NCBI GenBank assembly: GCA_024679065.1
Contig: JAGIQG010000014.1
Coordinates: 48,918,001-48,982,000 of the forward strand
Source of the DNA: Sphyrna mokarran
Lineage: Eukaryota
Length of the DNA: 64,000 nt
Reading direction: 5' to 3'
Part shown: piece after piece, positions 9,441 through 56,039 of the stretch
Position numbering within the stretch: the stretch's first letter is position 1
How the letters are laid out: the number at the start of each line of letters is the position of its first letter
The notes under the pieces: model-generated
The model's input: only the letters and a program-made list of their open reading frames with translations
Databases searched by the model: none
What the model was told of the DNA's origin: nothing
Made by a program: the position numbers and the translations under genes

Positions 9441-10536
<1,096 letters not shown>

Positions 10537-15389: not shown

Positions 15390-16422
15390 TTTAGTGTGGT
15401 TCCTTGAAGGTTTGCAAATGAATGCAGTTAAGGGAAACTTTCAACGATTAATTTGACCTGAATGAGTAACCAGTTTTGTGAGGGATGTTTTCAAACTAGC
15501 TCAAAAGGTTGCAGAAACTTGAGTCACACTGAATGTAATTTGCTCTTAAATTTGTGATCTTTTACACTGGTTTGACTGAGTCCTGCAGAAAAGTTCAACT
15601 GAACAAAAAAAATCCAGACTTTTTTTGAGCTTTTGCAGTGAGTTATGATAAATAGGACTGATTGGAAACATTATCAGCAACAAAGACAGGAAGTAAATTG
15701 GTTTTGGAAGTAAATGTTTGTATCAATAGTGGAGGCCAACAACTTTTCAGATTGGAGATTTTAACAGTAATGGGTAAATAGTGAATGTAACTGTGTTGCA
15801 GTTAGACTCATGAATTCTTGGATTCTGATGGATAAAATAGCTAAATTTTAATAGATGGATCTCTAAATTTCTCCTTGGCTGTTGTACTCCAGTGATGTTT
15901 TCACTGACTCATTGTCTATTTAACAGCAGCTTGTATTTATATAGCACCTGTAACGTGATAAAATATCCCAAGATGTGCCTCTGATGCACATTTTAAAGTA
16001 AAATACAACTTATTAGGAAGAATAGGTTGGGTTAATTGGCCATGCTAAATTGACGCTTAGTGTCAGGGGAATTAGCAGAGTAAATATGTAGGGTTATGGG
16101 GATAGAGCCAATTTACTTACTGTCTTTGTTGCTGATAATGTTTCTAATCAGTCCTATTCATCATTCACTGCAAGAATTCAAAAGGGTCTGAATTTTTTTC
16201 TTTTTTGCACTTTTTTGGGGCATAATTCTGCAGAATTCAGTCAAACCAGTGTAAAAGATTGCAAATTTAAGAGCAAATTACATGGTGTGGCTCAAGTTTC
16301 TGCAATCTTTTGTGCTAGTTTGAAAACATCCCTCATACAAAACTGGTTACTCACTCAGGTCAAATTAATCATCGAAAGTTTCTCAACTTTATTCGTTTAC
16401 AAGCTTTCAAGAAACCACTAAA
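15390..16422. repeat. Inverted duplication: arms 15390-15701 and 16108-16422
   Basis: For example tgagtaaccagttttgtgagggatgttttcaaactagc vs gctagtttgaaaacatccctcatacaaaactggttactca; colinear over ~310 bp. Confidence 0.93.
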
Positions 16423-21834: not shown

Positions 21835-23295
21835 TTTGTCCTGTCCACAAAAAGCAGGACAAATCTAATCTGATCAGTTAGTGTCCCATCAATCTACCCA
21901 CCATCATCAGCAGACTGATGGAAGTTATTACTGAGTGCTATCAAACAGCACAACTAATACTCATTTGGGTTACACAAGGGCCACTCAGCTTCTGACCTCA
22001 TTACAGTATTTGTGCTTTTTTCTTTGAAGGTGCCCATTATTCAGCCACTACCTTTATTGCCCAGATTTGATTCCAACACAACTCAACTTGGATGCATTCT
22101 CATCTTACTTCGCTTCCCTTAATTAGGTATCCTTGTTTTGGAATATTCCTTTTCCATAGCCTGGCTTTTTCTACATCCCTTCCACTAATAGTCCGTATAC
22201 TACGATGATCAATGTTATTGTACCTTTTTTTCATTCTTACCTTTAGGCAGACGGATTCTGTTCTTGCCCCCTCTGGAACATCCTCTAATATTGTAATATC
22301 ATCTTTAATCATTACTCCACTTCTATCCTTTATTATGGGATGAATTGAACATCATAACTTATGTTATGCTTCAGTTATACACAACAAAAATCCCCATTTC
22401 TGTCATGGAGGGAACATCATTGAAGCAGTTTGAGGATGGCTGGGCCTAGGACACTACCCTGAGGAACTCCTGCAGTGACTGAGATGATTGATTTCCAAGA
22501 ACACAATCATGTTCCTTAGTGCTAGGTATAACTCCTTTTGGTGGTGAGTTTTCCCCCAGATTCCCATTAACCTCCATTTTGCTAGGACTCCTTCATAGCA
22601 TACTTAGTGAAATGCTGCTTGGTGTCATGCAGTTATTCTTGCCTCACTTTGAGTTCAGTTTTTTGTGCATGTTTGGACAAAGTTTTTGATCTCTACAGCC
22701 CGAGTGGCCCCAGTGTAACCCAAAATGAGCATTAGTTGTTCTACTTAATAGCACTGTCAATGACATCTTCCAGTTCGCTGATGATGGTAGGAAGATTAAT
22801 GGGACACTTGTTGGCTAGATGCGTTTTGATCTGTACTTATGGACTGGACATACCTGGGCAATTTTTCACTTTGTTGAGAAGATATCAGTGTTGTTTCTTT
22901 TTATTCATGGGACATCACTAGCTGGCCAGCATTTGCCCATACCTAGTTGCCCTTGAAGGGCAGTTGAGTCAACCACATTGCTATGGATCTGGAGTTACAT
23001 GTAGGCCAGACCAGGAAAGGATGGCAGATTCCCTTCCCTAAAAGACATTAACGAATCAGGTGGGTTTTTCTGACAATCGATAATTTCATGGTCATAAGTA
23101 GATTCTTAATTCCAGATTTTTTAAATGGAATTCAAATTCCATCATTTGCTGTGGTGAGATTTGAACCCAGATTCCCAGAATATTGAGTTTCTGGAGTTAT
23201 AATCTAATGAGAATACCATTAGGCCATTGCCTCCCTGCAGCAGTCCGGAACAGTTTGGCTATGAACACTTATTCTGGAGCACAAGTCTTCAACAC
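21835..23295. mobile_element. Mosaic of L2/CR1 fragments with a minus-strand tRNA-SINE at 22895-23235
   Basis: KKQDKSN...FGLHKGHSASDLIT on +; GVPQGSVLGP antisense at ~22440-22470; SINE matches 18174-18545. Confidence 0.65.
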
Positions 23296-29344: not shown

Positions 29345-29700
29345 AAATTATTATAGTTTTAAACATCTTGATTGAAGTATCCCATAGTGTATCTTTTTTG
29401 CTCCAAGGAAAACAATTCCAGCCTCTCCTATCTTTCTTTTAGTCTTGGCAATATTCTTGTAAATCCTCTCTGTACCTTATCAAGTATGATCACATTATTA
29501 ATGCAGTAACCTAGCTGCAGACTAAATAGTGTTTTTGCTTTTTGCAGTTCAAACAAGTTCCCTACTTGGGTAATAATTACACAAGCCTTCTTGACTGCCT
29601 TACTATCTGATTTGTGAACATGCACACCAAGATTCCCCTGCACCTACTATTTAGTCTCAATACGTTTAGCTGGATTGAATTTCATTTACCACTGACCACA
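29345..29700 (-). mobile_element. CR1 3' fragment
   Basis: Minus ORF NLGVHVHKS...KVQRGFTRILP. Confidence 0.75.
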
Positions 29701-29849
29701 ATTCTATTTCTGTATTAATGTGAGGATGTGATGTTTTACTCCAGGCATGATTCTACTGACAAACTGTGGAGCTTTTATCACAACAAATTTTAGTTAAACT
29801 TTAACTGTAACAAATAAAGCTCCTTCTGTTTTCGATTCTGCATTGATTC

Positions 29850-30898
29850 CGATCCTGAATATAATGCTTGTAAATTAATCCTGATGTCCTCAAAGATCTG
29901 TGCAGAATCCAGAGGATAAAACTTTATATTGAAAGCAAACTCACACAAGCCATTTCGCATTTGCTTTTAAGGTTCCATCATCGAGTCTGCAACTGGTTAT
30001 TTTGATTTTCAGAGTACCGAAACTACAAACCAAAATAATCTTTTGCCAGAGCTGCTCACAAACATTATCTCTTTGTTCACAAGTTCTGTGTGACACTTTC
30101 TCAACTTTACATAATCATGCCATCAAGAATGGTTGCTTTTATCCTTGTCGACTTGTTAACTGGCCTTAATTCCTCTGTCAGGTCGTCCAACTCCACCTTC
30201 TGTTCGGAAATGGTACACTCAAAATATTTGAGTTTGATTCTTAGCTTTAAATTAAGATTTTCATCATTTTCTGCATATTCTTTGGCAAAAATGTATTGCA
30301 GATAGTGTCCAAATTTGTAATTATGGTTTTAGTGATCATTGTGGCACTTATGTCACTGCAAAATACATTAATTTAATTGAACCTCAGCTGAGGTTCAGTT
30401 TCTTGGGACAACAATTGTGTAAGCTGTGTAAATTTATTATCCTGGCAGTTAAGTTGGAATAATGATACAGTTTCATCAAACAGTCTTCCTTCACATAGTG
30501 GTCCTTTTTTTATGTATGCAGTAGTAAAATACTTCTGCTTCTCAATATCCAGATATTGAGATAATTTGAGAACGCATTACTGCTGACTAATCTACATTTT
30601 TCCTCTCATAGTTGAGTTGCTATCAACAAGCATGCAGTTTATGCTCAGTTAATTTCAACAACTCAGGAACAGGCACCAAATCAGTTAACTTTTCCTGCAT
30701 CTGCTCAATTTCTTTATTTATCTTCCAGTAACTTATTCTCCATCTCTGCCTTCACTAGTTTCACGTTACACTCATCTGTCTCCATTCATTTCTTTATTAA
30801 CTGAGATTTGTAAGTATCTACCAGCCCTTTGTAATGTTTGAGACTTTCTGCTGCTGCATTTCAGACTGAGCAAATGTCAACCAGTCTTTCAGATCCCA
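29850..30898 (-). pseudogene. ODF2/ODF2L (cenexin family)-like coding fragment, apparently intronless, degraded, inside the Gypsy element
   Basis: Hand translation: LKHYKGLVDTYKSQLIKK*METDECNVKLVKAEMENKLLEDK / NKEIEQMQEKLTDLVPVPELLKLTEHKLHAC**QLNYERKNVD ... FEDIRINLQALYSGSESMQN. Colinear with ODF2 C-terminal sequence as recalled. Confidence 0.72.
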
Positions 30899-31671
30899 AA
30901 GCAAAGTCTTCATAGATGTTGCTTAATTAACATTTCCTATATCATGCACAATTACTTTAGTACTTCCCAGTTTGTTGCCACAAATAGGTCCATGTGATTG
31001 TAATAACTCTTTCGGGTCACTTTGATTTCCCTCTGGAAGGTACAATTCAGTAATTTATTTCAATATCTGATCACTTACTTTCTCATTGTCAAATTCAGAA
31101 TTATCTGGATTTGTTTCTTCAAGTTGTAACAGTTAACAGATCCTGCTTTGCTTTCCTTCCCTGTAAAAATACTGTTTGAACATATGGCACATTTGTTTTT
31201 ATTTCTGCCTTTCTTATTGAATATTTCATCTCACTAATTTTCTTTTGATAAGGCCCACTAAACCTTGCTTTTAATGGTTCATCAACCACTGGTAATAATG
31301 ATAATACTTTATCCCCACCAACAAAAGTACACATTTTGATCTCTTATCCACTTTTTTCATCACATTCTGTGCAATCTTTAAATGGTGTCTAGCCTACTCA
31401 CCAGCCCCAATTAATCTTTCCTTCTGGTTTAATACATAGTCCAACAATGTAGTCTCAGAACTCTGACTCACCAATTCCTTCCTGATCCATTTGTGGTCCT
31501 CTTATCTCATGACCAAAAATTTAGTTGATCCATTAGATGAATCCCTAATTGCAAAAAGTACAAATGGAATTCCTTATCCCAATTTTCTGGATAATACCAA
31601 TTATAAGTCTTCAATATGGTCTTTTAGACTTTCACAGAAATTCTGGATGATATACAGTTGACTTTTTTTAA

Positions 31672-31961
31672 CCTATTCATGAAGCATGGCCATTGTTGGC
31701 TGACCACCATTTATCACCCATCCCTGGTTGCTGTGGCTCTGGAATCATGTATAAGCCAGACCAGATAAAGATGGCAGCTTTCCTTCCCCAAAGGTAATTA
31801 ATGAACTAGCTAACAATGGTTTCATGGTTATCAGAAGATTCTTAATTTCAGATTTTTTAAATTAAATTCAAATTGCACAGTCTGCCATGGCAGGATTCAA
31901 AACATTAGCTGTGTTTCTGGTTTAATAGTCTAGCAATAATACCACTAAGCTATTGTCTCCC
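31672..31961 (-). mobile_element. tRNA-derived SINE nested in the Gypsy integrase
   Basis: Antisense match to 18174-18545 and 22895-23235. Confidence 0.8.
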
Positions 31962-32159
31962 TTTTAAATTTTAAATTGCTTCACTCCTAAGCGATCCATA
32001 ACTTTCCTGAACAACTTCAAAGTAAAATTGGATCCTTCAACTGATTGGATTTTTGTGGCCAGTCCGAATCTGTTTTTTTTTTTCAAAAAAGTAATTCTTT
32101 TACAATCCTTTTAGCTGTAATATTACATAATGGAATGGGTTTCAGAAATTTAGTAGACA

Positions 32160-32400
32160 CATTGAAATCATGAGGGGCATAGATAAGGTTAATAGCCAAG
32201 ATCTTTTCCCTGGTGTAGGGGAATCCAGAACTAGAGAGTGTAGGTTTAAAGTGAAACAGGAAAGATTAGAAAGGAACCTGAAGGGGAAGGTTAAGATGGA
32301 TATTGACCAAACGCAGGTAAATGGGACTAGTTCAGTTTAGGAAACCTAGTTCGCATGGATGAGTTGGGCCGAAAGGCCTGTTTCTATGCTGTACATCTCT
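32160..32400 (+). mobile_element. CR1 3' end nested in the Gypsy integrase
   Basis: gagttgggccgaaaggcctgtttctatgctgta 3' stem. Confidence 0.8.
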
Positions 32401-33386
32401 ATCTGTTATGGTCAACAAATACTGATTCCCTCTTGTTTTAGGTTCCATACAACTAATAAGGTTCATAGTAATAAGTTCCTCAAATGTCAGAATGGGTACC
32501 AAGTGTGCTGGTTTGACTACTGCTTGAGGTTTTCCTATTACCTGATGGTAATATGCAAAATGCAATTACATCTTTATGCGCTCCAACGTTTTGTATTTTT
32601 GCTTGAGTTTTCCTTACTCCTAAATTACCACCTCCTCCTCAATTCCTCCTTTCGATAACCCACTTGATGAATTTCTACCCATTTTTCATCTGCCTGAATA
32701 TGTAAAGGTTGTCTTCATTATAACAATTTTTAATGTAATAGCACTTTGGTATACACTCAGATTCTGCTGTCTATGCTTTCTGATGCAACTATTTTATTTC
32801 TATATCTTTCTGTTGTAACTCTTCAATTTTCCTGAACTAAAAATATCCAACTGATCCCTACCTGTTCTTGTTCTTTTCCAACCATCCAATCAAAAATTGT
32901 TTCTGATAACTGAACTTCAACTTTCTTCACTCTGATTTCTCCTCTTGTCTTAATCTGTCTTTGTGACCTTGTTATTACACAATCAAGAAAAGTCCCAGGA
33001 TGTGTGTTTTTCAACAACTCAGTTGTTTAATTCTCCACTAGCTTTTCAACCACAGGCATCACTCCCACCTGTAATCAAGCTATATTGTTACCCAAGATAA
33101 ACTAATTTCTGAACAAGATAATTTCTCTAGTACTCCCACTACACTTCATTCTTGACTGGACACTCTAATGTTACTTTATATAATGGAAACTACTCTCTTC
33201 TCACTCTGAATTCCATATATTATTACCTCTTCTGTCAATACTCCTTCCAAACTACATATCTCCTCATCTCTCATCACCTAAAGTTTGATTTGATCCGGTA
33301 CCTATGAAGATTGTAATTTTTTACTCCTAGTATATATGAGTAAACCATACCCATGTAAATAAACTCTAGTACTAGCTTATAAACTG

Positions 33387-33712
33387 TTGGCACAGTGGTT
33401 AGTCAAGGACCTAGGTTCAATTTTGTAGCTGGCTGTATGGAATTTATACATTCTCCAGTGTCTGAGTGGGTTTTCACTTGGTGTTCCAGTTTCTTCCCAT
33501 GTCCAAAGACATCCAGTTCAGGTGGATTTGCCATGTTAAAAATTGACACTTTAGTGTCCAAAGATATGCAGGTAAGGGGGATTAGTAAGATAAATGAATG
33601 GTGCTATGGGACTGGGATAAGAGTTGGGCCTGAGTAAGATGCTCTGTCAGAGTTGGTACAGACTTAATGGGCTGAAAGGCCTCCTACATTGTAGGGATTC
33701 TATAATGCTATG
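33387..33712 (+). mobile_element. HE1-type V-SINE nested in the Gypsy element
   Basis: ggcacagtggttag head, V-domain, CR1-type tail. Confidence 0.8.
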
Positions 33713-36094
33713 AATGCCTGAACAAGCAATATGTTGTTTTGCACCTCTTTTTAACTTCAAATATTGTTTCCTTTGCCATTTTAACAAACTCCACTGGCTT
33801 ATCCTGTTTTTTTTCACATTTGCCTTCCCAGTGCTTTATCTTGAGCCACAATACTGCAACTTTGTGTTTAACTTTATTACACTGAAAACATGAAGGTATT
33901 TTATTTTTCTTTCACCTCATGTCTCCTTTTTCTTTCACCATCATACGTTTCCTTACTAAGTCCAATGAGACCTTCTTTTCCCTGACCATCTGAGGATTTC
34001 TTTTTTCCCCCAGCTTCTATCCCTCAGTTTGAAATTGATGTCAAAAACTAAACCTTGATTCATGAACAAATTCAAAATCATTTTCCATTTCTGCTACCAT
34101 CTCGTAGTTTTAATCCATTCCACTTTAATCCTTTCCTCACTACTATGGGAAGTGTCTTTTTAAATTCTTCAAAATAACCATTTTCTTAGTATCTAGTCTA
34201 CTTTCAATGTCGTTATCCATCTTAAGTTTGTTTGATTCTTTAAGATTCTATATACATCTGTCTTGGTTCCTTCTTAGATTTCTAAACTTTTGCTGTTAGC
34301 ATCTGGCTCTGGTTCATATACACTTAAGATGTTTCTCACATCACAATAATCCCTAGAAATAATCTCTAATAGTAATGCAAACACCTGATTAGCTCTACCT
34401 ACCAACTTTGTTTGAACCAAATAGCCATTTTAATTTTTTAGTTACTTATTCAAATGAAATGAAAAAGGCTTCTCCATCCTTCTTGTCAAACTTTGGCTTG
34501 AAAATATTTAAACATATCCCCACTAGGATTTTGACTAAGAATGGTTGACTCCTCCTCTTTTTCTCTTTACCTCAACCAGTTTAAGTTGATTTCTTTGCAG
34601 TTTCAGTTTCTGAAGTTCAAAACTCTTTTCTTTTGCTACGAGTTCAAGCTTTTTCTTTTTTCTGTTAAAGCTGTTTCAATTGTAACTACATTTTAGCTAG
34701 TTCTGATGACTCACTGTTTCTAGCAGATTTAAATGCTAAGCTATTACTGAAACTGTCTGCTGCCTTCATCCCTTTGGGTACAATCAACTTCAGCTTGCTT
34801 GCCAAATCCAAAATTTTGATTTCAACCACCCTTTGTAAACCACTCCAGGTACCTCTTCCACATCCAGGAAATCTTTAGTCACCAGAAGAGACATTTTTCT
34901 AAAAGGCACTCCTATTTAACTGAATACAACGCTTGAAGAGAAACACCATGTCCTCAATACCAATAGAAAGGAACCCACAGTTTTTGTTAGGGTACCACAT
35001 CAGAAACCATAAGGTTTATGAAGCTAAATTAGACCCCAACTATTTTTTTATTTTGGTACTAATATGAGGATATGTTCACTCCAGGCACAATACTGACACA
35101 TTAGGAAGCTTTGTCAAAAAGTTATTTAACAATATAGTTAAATTATTAAAAATAAATTAGCTTAACTTTTAACAATTGAATAATACTTAATGTGAAGATA
35201 CAATTCTTAACAGTTAACATATCAGAATTCTAATCAAACATAATTTCTCTTTTAAACTTAACCCCTCATAATTAGCAAAACCCAGGCATACTTGCTTGTG
35301 ACTTGGTTTAACAGTCCTGGAGCTTGCCGAAAGCCTGAGTTAGGACAGACTTCTTGCTTCAACCAGCTACAGGCAGCAACTGTTAATATCCTGTCATTCA
35401 ATCTAATGAAAACTCTACTCTGAAATCTCCGGAGGAACTTGAGTAACACAAATGCATTATTAGCTCTACTTAAACAAGCATTCCATGTTAAAATGAGTAC
35501 TTACGCTGTTCTCCCAGCTACTAATTTAAAAGTTTTCCTACACAAACTGTCATCCTGCAAAACAAAGCTGTATTTTAAACATGATATATAAGAAACATGA
35601 TATAGATATAGTTCTTAAACATAGTGTCTTCAAATCACTTTTCTGTCCACTTAACTAATCTTTCAATATTTTCCTGATGTCTACATCCTCATTTTTCACT
35701 AACAATAACTTCCATCTCCAAATTTCTCAATTATGCTGCCTACAATTAAGTCTCAATCTTTGGTGTATACCAAGAAAAGTATGAGACATTTATACTGAGC
35801 CCTGCCAGACCTCAATGAACCCCAGTCACAAAACATGCATTGAACTTTACCCTTTGCTTTCTAGTCAGCATTAGAATATAAGATCCTATTTCACAGGAGA
35901 AACAACCATACATTTTTAATATCATTAGATGTTGATTTCTCCTACAAAATAAACTGTGACCTTATACATTACATAAGGGATGGTTGAATATAAACTATTT
36001 GGCCAATCCACCTTACTACAAATATGGGACTAAGTGTTCCTGTAGAATCAGCAATCAATTTATTTTCTTATTGTACAAGTGAATGCACAATCTC

Positions 36095-40129: not shown

Positions 40130-40730
40130 CCTCGATTTGCTCGCACCGGGCACCTTTTCCTCCCCCTGTTGCTGATCAAGTGTGAGCTTGGGGTGAACAA
40201 AGCAGCGGCTGTCAGGGATTTATTTTATGTGTGAGAAACTTTTTTCGTCGTGGTTTTGCTGGAGGGGTGCTGGCGGGCGGCGACAGGAGGAAACGGCCTC
40301 TTCTCCCCCCGCCTCCTCCTCCTCCTTCACACCGAGAGAGCTGCATGAATCCCTGCAACACGGCGAGAAATGCTGCGGAATCTCGCAGTGGCGGCGGCGG
40401 CGGCGGGGGACGGTGCCCAGGAGCCAGGTGAGTCTCTGCCCGCTGCCAGGGGCAACCGGGGAGGCAGGCGCCGCGGAGGGGAGCTAAAGACAGGGGTCCT
40501 GAGAGCGCGAGCTGCAGCTGCCGTGGCGCCCGTGCCGAGGCCCCGCGTCCGGGCGATTGACAGACAGTGTGAGAGAGAGAGAGATATTGAGTGTGATTGA
40601 GAGAGAGTTCCAGCACCCCTCTCACTGAGCGGCCAGATAGCAGCTTTTACCGTCCCCTCATCCCCTCCACCCCACAACACACGCAGTCCCTACCGCCTGC
40701 TCCATCTGCGGGGCCGGGATGTGGGCAGTG
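40130..40730 (+). promoter_or_regulatory. CpG island / promoter and first exon of the KLHL3-type gene
   Basis: Abrupt GC- and CpG-rich block with GC boxes and (GGC)n, a reverse CCAAT just upstream (~40117), and a strong donor CAG|GTGAGT. Confidence 0.8.
40345..40427 (+). CDS. KLHL3: Kelch-like protein 3, putative first coding exon (MNPCNTARNAAESRSGGGGGGGRCPGA, phase 2)
   Basis: ATG 40345 to donor GT 40428 is 83 nt. Phase 2 joins exon 60059 in frame (AG+C = Ser). Peptide itself not recognised. Confidence 0.6.
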
Positions 40731-40763
40731 GGATACTGACACCTTCACATGCTCTATCCCAAA

Positions 40764-40883
40764 CCCCCCCTGGCTCTACCCCCACACTTCCCCCACCCCC
40801 GGCTCTATCCCCCTCCGCTGTATCCCCCAGCCCCCGGCTCTACCCCCTCTACCCCCCCCCACCACCGGCTCTACCCCTTCTAC

Positions 40884-43037: not shown

Positions 43038-43845
43038 ATCCAAGGCAATACACCAACTCTTAATTCGGCTAATAGCTTGAGAGTCAGTGCAGGCCATATT
43101 TTTTTTAAACCTGGTGTTATATTTTTGCAGTCTATCGGCATTGAACAATCACAACCAATGTCAGAGTTTTAATATCGAAATAATATGAAAAAAATATTGT
43201 CGTCTGAAATGAGATTACTGAGGATGGAATATTTTTCCTCAATATTTCTGTTGTCTGAAATTGCAGATAATTAGCTTGCACTTTTCACAACGATACAATT
43301 ATGACAGAGCAAGTGTTTGAAAGTTTGTATGTACTTTATTTATTTTTAAAATATAGTCAACTTTAATAACTTTAAATGCATCTTTCGACAAACTGTTCCA
43401 TCTGCCTAACAATGTAGGAAATTTCTGAGGAATGCCCTTTCATTAAGAGCAGGACAAATCCAGTCTAGCCCATTAGTCCACTTTTAATCATTGACAAAGA
43501 TATTGCAGGAGTTCTATCAGTAAAGACCTGCACACTGATGCTCAGTTTGGGTTCTGTCAGGGTTACTCAGCCTCATATCCAACTATAGTCCCCGAGTCTC
43601 TCTGGACTCTTAGTCCCCAGAAGAGACAACAGAAATATTGAGGAAAAAATATTCCATCCTCAGTAAATCTCATTTCAGACGACAATTTTTTTTCATATTA
43701 TTTCGATATTAAAACTCTCTGACATTGGTTGTGATTGTTCAATGCCGATAGACTGCAAAAATGTAACACCAGGTTTAAAAAAAATGTGGCCTGCACTGAC
43801 TCGCAAGCTATTAGCTGAATTAAGAGTTGGTGCATTGCCTTGGAT
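43038..43845. repeat. Inverted duplication: arms 43038-43256 and 43624-43845
   Basis: For example gcagtctatcggcattgaacaatcacaaccaatgtcagag vs ctctgacattggttgtgattgttcaatgccgatagactgc; ~220 bp, high identity by eye. Confidence 0.95.
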
Positions 43846-52030: not shown

Positions 52031-52582
52031 CAGCAAACTGCTGAAACTGACTCTGCTCTTGCAAGTTTAGTAAGGCATAGGACTAAGGAATATTTGCCTC
52101 GGAGATGGATACAATGATGGCTAATGATTCCTTGGTATTTTCTGAACTGAATGTGTTGGTGAATTCAGACTTAACGGTTTCTGAGTAATTAACCAGGTAA
52201 GTGCTGCAAGGGAGAAGCGGGGAGGCATTGGTAATGCAGATGGATGTGAAAGAGCAGGAATAGTTCATTTAAACCCTCAAGCCTGCTCTGGTACTTAAGC
52301 TCATAGCTGCTCTGATTGTAGTTCTACTTTCCTGTCTATCCCCATAATCTTTGACTCCCTTGTCAATCAAGAATCTATCTCATACAGCCTTAAAATATTC
52401 AGTGACCCTGTTTCCACTGCTCTCAAGAGGAGAGAATTTCATGGACTAACAACTGTCAGAGAGAAAAAGTTCTCCTCACAAGGTAGAGATTCAGGTATAT
52501 ATTTCAAAGAGGTGTGGAGATTGGCATCAAAATGATTTGACTTCCTTTCAAGGCTCTGCCATTTGAAGACGGGGCAAACTTA

Positions 52583-53222
52583 AAGGCTTATGGAGTCTTA
52601 GCTTTTATTGGTAGGGGGATTGAATTTAGGAGCCGCAGCATCATGTTGCAGCTGTACAAAACTCTAGTGCGGCCGCACTTGGAGTATTGTGTGCAGTTCT
52701 GGTCGCCACATTATAAGAAAGATGTGGAGGCATTGGAGAGGGTACAGAGGAGGTTTACTAGGATGTTGCCTGGTATGGAGGGCAGGTCCTATGAAGAGAG
52801 GTTGAAGGATTTGAGGTTGTTTTCGTTAGAAAGGAGGCGGCTAAGAGGGGATCTTATTGAAGCATATAAGATGATTAGAGGTTTAGATAGGGTGGACAGT
52901 GATAGCCTTTTTCCTAGGATGGAGAAAGCTAGCACGAGGGGACACAGCTTTAAATTAAGGGGTATGAGTTATAGGACGGATATCAGAGGTAGGTTCTTTA
53001 CTCAAAGAGTGATTAGGGAGTGGAATGCCCTGCCTGCAGCTGTTGTAGATGCGCCAAGTTTGGTGGCGTTTAAGAGGTTAATTGATAAGTATATGGAAGA
53101 GAAGGGAATGGTTTAGTTTGGAGGGGCATTGCTTTTTATTTTGGTCGGCACAACATCGAAGGCCGAAGGGCCTGTTCTGTGCTGTATTGTTCTATGTTCT
53201 ATGTTCTATGTTCTATGTTCTA
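52583..53222 (+). mobile_element. Young 5'-truncated CR1 (HER1-like) LINE
   Basis: Open frame KAYGVLAFIGRG...LYKTLVRPHLEYCVQFWSPHY...MEEKGMV, CpGs retained, (TTCTATG)n tail. Confidence 0.95.
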
Positions 53223-55041: not shown

Positions 55042-56039
55042 CCTCTACCTTGAATTTCTACCTCGTGAGAAGAACTTTTTCTCTCTGACAGTTGTTAGTC
55101 CATGAAATTCTCTCCCCTTGAGAGCAGTGGAAACAGGGTCACTGAATATTTTAAGGCTGAATGAGATAGATTCTTGATTGACAAGGGAGTCAAAGATTAT
55201 GGGGGTAGACAGGAAAGTAGAGTTGAACTACAATCAGAGCAGCTGTGAGCTTAAGTGCCAGAGCAGACTTGAGGGTTTAAATGAACTATTCCTGCTCTTC
55301 CACATCCATCTGCATTACCGCTGCCTCCCCGCTTCTCCCTTTCAGCACTGACTTTCTGTACCAGGAAGGTCTTGGGGACGATGTGAGATAGCTTATTTCT
55401 ATTCACTTCAAATTCCCTTGATTAGAAAATGGAATGTGTGTTGTTAGAAATTAATACTTACCAATAAATGACTGAATTGATTTCTAACATCTTAATATAA
55501 TTTTTATTTCAGCAGACTCTGAAATTCTTTGTAAAGACACAACAAATGTCCTTCTACTGATATTTGTCTTTCTGCCAACAAAGACTTCAAGAAGGCAGAT
55601 TCCTGTTTCCTTTCCGAAAGAATTGTGTTAGTCTATGTACAAAGGTTAATGTAATCTTAATAACTTGGAAATACTTTATAGGAATTTCTATGAACTTGAC
55701 ACTTTCTGGTTAATTGATTCAACATTCTGGGAATTTGTTCTGCTTTTGTGAACACTAAATATGAAGAAAAATAATTGCAACTTTAAGTATCTTTTCTTCT
55801 ATGTTGTCAAAAGCTGTGCATTATTTGGAGAAGGTTATTTGATTAGTGCTAACATTTCGATTGCTTTTGCTTTGGTTTTTATATTTATTTGGTTTTGAAA
55901 AGTTATGTAGTGTTCCTTAGAATATTTGTAAGTTGATCATAAACCTTAAGTATTGGACATCTTTATTGATTCTGAACATTTTGGATCAATTATCTGGTAC
56001 AAATGATGATAAAAGGCTGAGAAATTAACTGCCACAGAC

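What the first reader, a model, noticed from the sequence alone, without database searches (positions are those of the whole stretch)
29711..30960. Gypsy LTR element whose RT/RNaseH is replaced by an intronless ODF2/ODF2L-like host gene fragment
Seen: on the minus strand the element runs gag-protease-integrase into the first RT residues (VHD...IKQHL*RL, ending ~30903). It then switches abruptly to LKHYKGLVDTYKSQLIKK*METDE...ENKLLEDK / NKEIEQMQEKLTDLVPVPELLKLTEHKLHAC**QLNYERKNVD ... FEDIRINLQALYSGSESMQN, and from there joins the distal part of an LTR (29711-29800, similar to 35055-35150). Knowledge (recalled): this is colinear with the C-terminal coiled coil of ODF2/cenexin (NYEGMIDNYKSQVMKTRLEADE...LPDILKITEAKLAECQDQLQGYERKN...LQDLKDRLEQSESTNRSMQN), a multi-exon germline/centriole gene; the Gmr1 domain order is PR-IN-RT. 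Inference: a spliced germline mRNA was captured by template switching, possibly founding a non-autonomous family carrying centriolar or sperm-tail cargo. This copy is dead (stops, frameshifts).
Basis: partly seen in the sequence, partly recalled or inferred. Interest (0 to 1): 0.75.

Follow-up and report, generated by a model that had tools for sequence, protein, structure and literature searches.

The report
Jumping-gene family carrying scrambled ODF2 fragments
This is a dead copy of a repeated jumping gene, likely from a shark, whose copying-enzyme gene is mostly missing and which instead holds intron-free, out-of-order pieces of the host centriole gene ODF2, likely picked up from ODF2 RNA (possibly a circular one) and then multiplied with that cargo.

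Summary
At 30881-30533 (minus strand) lies shark-type ODF2, aa 534-655 (74 of 93 ungapped codons identical to Mustelus ODF2), running across three exon borders without introns. Instead come a 267-nt unidentified stretch, a probable scrap of aa 668-676, then a jump back to aa 382-412, as little diverged as the main piece. That jump lies within about five codons of an exon end and an exon start, as a circular-RNA back-splice would, though a gap-free template switch scores better. Diverged contigs in three of four runs link the RT-start region to ODF2, and ODF2 to the unidentified stretch; single cargo sites are covered by up to 27 differing contigs, so the cargo belongs to an old multi-copy family. 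No poly(A), no RT remainder. Verdict: a new member of a known kind (LTR-mediated retrocopy turned non-autonomous family), with a roughly 30% chance of circular-RNA origin. This copy is dead.

The parts
34983..35217 (-). Distal part of the presumed 5' LTR (its start was not determined)
   Evidence: 72% identical to the repeat at 29676-29878 over 183 ungapped columns, core by blastn; LTR role inferred from position before gag
33150..34890 (-). Decayed gag and protease region, with a nested short repeat at about 33400-33720
   Evidence: By eye from translations, motifs recalled; no Pfam hit; borders approximate
31120..32800 (-). Decayed integrase, interrupted by nested repeats, lying upstream of the RT start
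   Evidence: Open frame 32335-32565 scores 0.93 to integrase clusters in the Atlas, a lead-level hit; no Pfam or PDB hit; borders by eye
30903..31054 (-). First residues of reverse transcriptase (label from a recalled motif)
   Evidence: Translation; multi-copy, 29 differing contigs at 31014 in run X1; no database hit
30882..30902 (-). Element-to-ODF2 junction zone, exact switch point unresolved
   Evidence: Match to ODF2 aa 520-533 is at chance level, 42 of 400 nulls; low depth from other contigs in this bin
30533..30881 (-). Main ODF2 piece, aa 534-655 (numbering of P0024), four exon segments joined without introns, sense to the element
30266..30532 (-). Unidentified 267-nt stretch, nearly open in the ODF2 frame, shared with other copies
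   Evidence: 1 stop in 88 codons, matched by 40 of 1978 composition-matched segments; no homolog found; up to 27 differing contigs in X1
30236..30262 (-). Probable scrap of ODF2 aa 668-676, near the end of the exon in which the main piece stops
   Evidence: 19.7 bits; reached by 2 of 400, 0 of 400 and 2 of 400 nulls in a test chosen after seeing it; best of 13 exon profiles; 6 of 9 residues identical
30138..30226 (-). Second ODF2 piece, aa 382-412, out of order; starts at or within four codons of an exon start
   Evidence: 55.8 bits against null maximum 32.2; 15 of 21 residues identical, 6 minimal base changes in 63; exon border in L004
29830..30137 (-). Unassigned stretch, partly shared with other copies; not the ODF2 C-terminus
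   Evidence: No match above null; 2, 5 and 9 differing contigs at 29949 in X1, X3, X9
29702..29800 (-). Fragment of the 3' LTR, cut short at its distal end; no clear polypurine tract before it
   Evidence: highest depth of the laid stretch, and 56 X1 records run on in other sequence at 29714

Best explanation
This is a decayed copy of a multi-copy LTR-element family, likely a Gmr1-type Gypsy element, that carries intron-free ODF2 pieces in place of most of its predicted RT/RNase H gene and likely gained them when reverse transcriptase switched onto co-packaged ODF2 RNA. Shown: the ODF2 pieces, their lack of introns, their scrambled order, and their presence with the same neighbours in other diverged contigs. 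Inferred: (1) ODF2 RNA entered the element's particle in a germline cell; (2) RT left the element just inside the RT gene, copied ODF2 aa 534-655, and through further switches added the unidentified stretch, the aa 668-676 scrap and the aa 382-412 piece before returning to the element; (3) the product kept its LTRs and was copied in trans by intact relatives to at least ten to a few dozen loci; (4) copies then decayed, this one also losing part of its 3' LTR and collecting nested repeats. The cargo is most likely a passenger. Whether the backward jump is a further switch on linear mRNA or a back-splice in a circular RNA is open (see rivals).
For: ODF2 identity and divergence. Exon borders crossed. 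Sense orientation, both ends truncated, no A run longer than 7 nt in 29600-30950, and no RT remainder seen downstream: the pattern of LTR-mediated retrocopies in PMC5131818 (section 5 read). Family: of 15 joint rows shown (191 in all), 6 link the RT-start side (30937 and up) with ODF2 (8 contig counts in X1, 3 in X3, 1 in X9; 4 of the 8 have a short side of 30 letters or more) and 5 link ODF2 with the unidentified stretch or beyond; single sites carry 11 (30795), 22 (30500) and 27 (30488) differing contigs in X1, comparable to 29 at the RT start (31014), while the window's own locus is a separate set of 5 listed records with no differences. Diverged records in X1, X3 and X9 also cross the 597/598 border with only 17 gap letters, far below an intron (records 6, 21, 22, 29). 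Integrase-before-RT order fits Gmr1 as described in PMC8220671 (passage).
Against: RT, gag and protease labels have no tool support. Microhomology at the junctions was not testable. The 3' side shows only about 100 nt of LTR, no clear polypurine tract and no target-site duplication, so this copy alone does not show a transposition-competent structure. The two LTR pieces are only 72% alike and could be of different subfamilies. Contig counts are not locus counts (alleles and overlapping contigs inflate them), all RT-to-ODF2 joints are marked 'between: not known', 176 joints and 2073 pieces were not shown, and run X2 shows no such joint among the rows listed.
Confidence: 0.78

Rival explanations
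1. Same capture and spread, but the template was a circular ODF2 RNA (exons of aa 382-681). RT entered the circle at aa 534, ran to the end of the aa 651-681 exon, crossed the back-splice into the aa 382-420 exon and left. This refines rather than excludes the best explanation.
For: All firm ODF2 sequence lies inside aa 382-681; the backward jump falls within about 5 codons of an exon end and 4 codons of an exon start; an exact back-splice model scores 58.6 bits against 34.2 for a colinear reading; no poly(A). Mouse circRFWD2 gave 33 LTR-associated pseudogenes with reversed exon order (PMC4897178, whole text read).
Against: A gap-free join at aa 675-677 to aa 378-380 scores 66 bits, about 8 more than the exact back-splice, which needs a 5-nt loss (the best of about 30 join points tried). 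The aa 668-676 scrap is only 27 nt and was tested after being seen. The X3 and X9 copies differ at four places in that scrap, which weakens it. No colinear aa 413-534 follows (11 of 150, 5 of 150, 11 of 150 nulls reach the score). The 267-nt insert shows that other rearrangements happened anyway.
Confidence: 0.3
2. An ordinary LINE-made ODF2 retrocopy landed in a Gypsy element, and later deletions removed the rest of RT.
For: LINE remnants are common in the window; the copy is old enough to have lost a poly(A) tail and a target-site duplication.
Against: No poly(A) or RT remainder; the ODF2 3' end is missing and the pieces are scrambled; other diverged contigs share the RT-to-ODF2 link, so it is not a single-locus event.
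Confidence: 0.08
3. The extra copies come from DNA-level duplication (segmental or tandem) of one chimeric locus, not from retrotransposition.
For: Contigs are short and give no flanks or map positions.
Against: Most laid records are under 90% alike (478 of 654 in X1, LTR records included), cargo site counts resemble those of the RT start, and the window holds no second copy.
Confidence: 0.07
4. The cargo was translated in the active family as an ODF2 coiled-coil fusion and was kept because it helped the element (for example by tethering to centrioles).
For: Sense orientation; the unidentified stretch is nearly open in the ODF2 frame (40 of 1978 nulls); aa 382-402 lies in a 73-codon open frame.
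Against: This copy has 4 stops and 6 indels in 350 nt; its 19 replaced or stopped codons in 93 fit neutral decay; no element-encoded ODF2 fragment of 161 aa or more appeared among 22 hits (weak evidence).
Confidence: 0.07

Closest known systems
LTR-mediated retrocopies of animals (Tan et al. 2016, PMC5131818; abstract, passages and section 5 read; supplements not seen)
   Same: Partial spliced mRNA replaces part of the internal ORFs, no poly(A), sense orientation, several switches possible, further copying as a non-autonomous element.
   Different: Their cases are young, in fly, mosquito, zebrafish, chicken and mammals, with few insertion sites. This one is old, in a cartilaginous fish, appears at tens of contigs in several organisms, and scrambles pieces of one gene.
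circRNA-derived pseudogenes, mouse circRFWD2 with MMERVK10C-int (Dong et al. 2016, PMC4897178; whole text read; supplements not seen)
   Same: Reversed exon order, no poly(A), tens of copies tied to an LTR element.
   Different: There the back-splice junction is exact and the circle is known from RNA; here the junction is decayed, a mid-exon switch fits slightly better, and no RNA was seen.
Gmr1-clade Gypsy elements (PMC8220671, passages read)
   Same: Integrase upstream of the RT start.
   Different: Almost all of RT and RNase H are absent here; clade membership was not tested by a tree.
Earlier AI notes of this scan: Gypsy or retrovirus-like families with SUDS3 or RBPMS2 cargo, and a KMT2D retrocopy, in cartilaginous fish (unchecked leads)
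   Same: Host RNA in place of pol, amplified as a family.
   Different: Different cargo; those notes describe whole or colinear mRNAs.

Membership tests
LTR-mediated retrocopy | Host-gene segment lacks the parent's introns | tested here: met
   Three borders crossed; borders taken from ray isoforms and two non-shark loci, not from this host's gene
LTR-mediated retrocopy | Replaces part of the internal ORFs instead of interrupting them | tested here: inconclusive
   No RT remainder seen by eye between cargo and 3' LTR piece, but the RT start itself has no database hit
LTR-mediated retrocopy | No poly(A) tail at the cargo's 3' end | tested here: met
   One run of 7 A at 30511, none after the cargo; age could also erase a tail
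LTR-mediated retrocopy | Microsimilarity at the switch points | not testable with these tools
   No host ODF2 DNA and no intact element held
LTR-mediated retrocopy | Both LTRs present | tested here: inconclusive
   Only a 72%-alike distal piece on the 3' side, cut short
Non-autonomous LTR family | Several diverged copies share the chimeric layout | tested here: met
   Joints and site counts in X1, X3, X9; flanks and locus numbers not seen
Non-autonomous LTR family | Primer-binding site, polypurine tract and target-site duplication | tested here: inconclusive
   No purine run of 11 or more before the 3' LTR piece; primer-binding site not matched to a tRNA; duplication not testable with a cut end
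Gmr1-clade Gypsy | Integrase upstream of RT | tested here: inconclusive
   Integrase lead at 32335-32565; RT start by recalled motif only
Gmr1-clade Gypsy | RT or integrase tree placement | not tested
   No reference elements obtained
circRNA-derived pseudogene | Reversed exon order | tested here: met
   aa 534-655 precedes aa 382-412
circRNA-derived pseudogene | Junction exactly at splice sites | tested here: inconclusive
   Within about 5 codons of both borders; 58.6 bits against 66.3 for a mid-exon join
circRNA-derived pseudogene | The circle is seen in RNA | not testable with these tools
   No RNA holder listed

The most novel reading that the evidence does not exclude
A circular RNA of ODF2 was reverse-transcribed into a Gypsy element in an early shark germline, and the resulting non-autonomous element spread the back-spliced cargo to dozens of loci still shared by several species: a fossil of an ancient circRNA outside mammals, with the capturing element still wrapped around it.
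Probability: 0.3. Interest if true: 0.72.

Novelty: new member of a known kind. Interest (0 to 1): 0.48.

Why it matters
It extends LTR-mediated gene capture with family-scale spread to cartilaginous fish and records which RNA shared a particle with the element long ago. If the backward jump is a back-splice, it would date a circular RNA by its genomic fossils and show the route of circRNA retrotransposition, which PMC4897178 calls mysterious. For annotation, many ODF2-like hits in shark genomes are likely this family, not genes. No paper on an ODF2-carrying element turned up in the held library (0 papers; none on this among the listings); most subscription papers and repeat libraries were not searchable.

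Tried and rejected
No genome is held for this window. Pfam found nothing relevant for the ODF2 pieces, for ODF2 itself or for the element's frames; PDB gave only chance hits or none. Homolog searches with the second ODF2 piece's frame (35 candidates) and with the unidentified stretch (55 candidates) found nothing, which is weak evidence. P0008 is a restriction-enzyme subunit, a chance hit. Viral contigs gave no integrase relative. No tRNA or Rfam match in the window. Cluster members of ODF2, wanted for closer orthologs and for isoforms that might hold the unidentified stretch, could not be obtained. Rejected: the tail match to the ODF2 C-terminus; a continuous diverged ODF2L-like copy from aa 290 to 530 (one sub-test, aa 290-381 against 29800-30137, was borderline at 5 of 150, 0 of 150, 2 of 150 and was not accepted since seven regions were tried); the second piece as a live host exon (no other ODF2 exons in 4266 six-frame chunks of the window). 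One block and the block AB2 were out of frame and were dropped. Earlier-finding look-ups by place and sequence were empty.

Full report
Setting. No genome is held. The host is inferred to be a shark because the cargo is closest to shark ODF2. On the minus strand a heavily decayed element runs from an LTR-like repeat near 35000-35200 to a second, 72%-alike piece at 29702-29800. Between them I read gag, protease, integrase and the first residues of RT by eye (motifs recalled). Pfam and PDB detect none of these. The Atlas places 32335-32565 with integrase clusters at 0.93, a lead, and gives nothing for the RT start. Integrase before RT is the Gmr1 order (PMC8220671, passage).

The cargo is ODF2. 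One window frame found two proteins among 1.84 billion, a 91-aa hit at E=4e-8 and a chance hit. The first is a single vertebrate exon with flanking intron read-through; all 22 of its longer relatives are chondrichthyan ODF2 or ODF2-like. Against these, 30881-30533 matches aa 534-655 at 261 bits (null maximum 32.2 in 80 random segments). In five ungapped blocks 74 of 93 codons equal Mustelus, 73 Scyliorhinus, 72 Pristiophorus, 64-69 the rays listed and 63 Callorhinchus. Two residues (aa 563, 573) are shared only with Mustelus and Scyliorhinus and one (aa 551) only with rays among 11 orthologs, a weak hint that capture happened within sharks.

It is spliced. Ray isoforms skip aa 526-562 and aa 562/563-596/597, and two genomic loci from other animals show AG/GT-bounded exons ending at aa 381, 562, 597, 650 and within 681. 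The window crosses 562/563, 597/598 and 650/651 directly. The host's own gene was not seen.

It is not colinear. After aa 655 comes a 267-nt stretch with no identified source that has one stop in 88 codons in the ODF2 frame (40 of 1978 matched segments do as well), so it may be coding-derived. Then 27 nt resemble aa 668-676 (2 of 400, 0 of 400, 2 of 400 nulls; chosen after seeing it; best of 13 exon profiles). Then 30226-30138 matches aa 382-412 (55.8 bits; 73.0 against a null maximum of 47.2 in 60 segments). Over aa 382-402 it needs 6 base changes in 63, like 20 in 279 for the main piece, so it comes from ODF2 itself. The 300 nt after it are unassigned.

The backward jump. It leaves about 5 codons before an exon end and lands at or up to 4 codons before an exon start. 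Anchored scores: colinear 34.2, exact back-splice 58.6 (paying for a 5-nt loss), best gap-free mid-exon join 66.3 bits out of about 30 join points. The closeness to both borders favours a circular template; the better gap-free score, the shortness of the scrap, four differences in that scrap in the X3 and X9 copies and the independent insert argue for caution. I put a circular origin at about 0.3.

It is a family. Contigs of four runs were laid on 29660-31100 at 80% likeness (4 of 14 listed runs). The window's own locus appears in X1 as five listed records without differences at depth 10-17. Beyond it, X1 has 11, 22 and 27 differing contigs at 30795, 30500 and 30488, 8 at 30297 and 29 at the RT start (31014); X3 and X9 show similar numbers, X2 (a small run) up to 5. 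Of 15 joint rows shown out of 191, six link the RT-start side to ODF2 and five link ODF2 to the unidentified stretch or beyond. Records 6, 21, 22 and 29 cross the 597/598 border with 17 gap letters. Pieces 87-98% alike bridge parts of the layout in X2, X3 and X9 (records 15, 17, 18, 20, 25, 26, 30); they may be this same insertion in relatives, which would make it old. Limits: contigs are not loci, depth is no copy number, the RT-to-ODF2 joints have unknown middles, and flanks were not seen.

Mechanism. Sense orientation, truncation at both ends, no poly(A) and replacement of internal ORF match LTR-mediated retroposition by template switching, including multiple switches and later spread as a non-autonomous element (PMC5131818). 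The switching itself and microhomology are inferred. The 3' LTR here is partial with no clear polypurine tract, which I read as later damage to this copy. With 4 stops and 6 indels in 350 nt the copy is dead, and nothing here shows selection on the cargo.

Comparison and verdict. The kind is known: LTR-mediated retrocopies (PMC5131818) and, for reversed exon order, circRNA-derived pseudogenes (PMC4897178). Supplements of both were not read; their case lists could bear on how often ODF2 or Gmr1 elements are involved. Other papers were seen only as search listings, apart from passages of PMC11117352 (not used). Unchecked notes of this scan describe similar families with other cargo in cartilaginous fish, which lowers the surprise. 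New here are the ODF2 cargo and its scrambled order. Interest 0.48; 0.72 if the back-splice is confirmed.

Noticed in passing
window 9559-10536 (+): Intact, intronless 325-aa ORF with two RRM domains (Pfam RRM_1, E=1.9e-33) and a Gly-rich tail; hnRNP A/B type, A0-like by recall.
   Followed up: partly
window 40150-40800: GC-rich island with short GCC and GGA runs, probably a promoter or first exon; two open frames had no Pfam hit.
   Followed up: partly
window 52197-52493 / 55051-55352, 15434-15701 / 16108-16382, 43038-43166 / 43717-43845: Long inverted-repeat pairs, 91-96% complementary; the first brackets a 191-aa LINE-like open frame at 52541-53116.
   Followed up: no
window 30540-30561 and 30375-30400: Two short near-perfect palindromes inside the cargo; the first coincides with a small insertion in the ODF2 piece.
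   Followed up: partly
window about 33400-33720, 32165-32400, 31700-31960, 29430-29650: SINE- or LINE-like fragments nested in or abutting the element, by eye; 31820-31897 is 79% alike to 23084-23161.
   Followed up: no
L001, L002, L003: Intronless contigs encoding ODF2 relatives at 32-43% identity, two nearly full length; organisms unknown.
   Followed up: no
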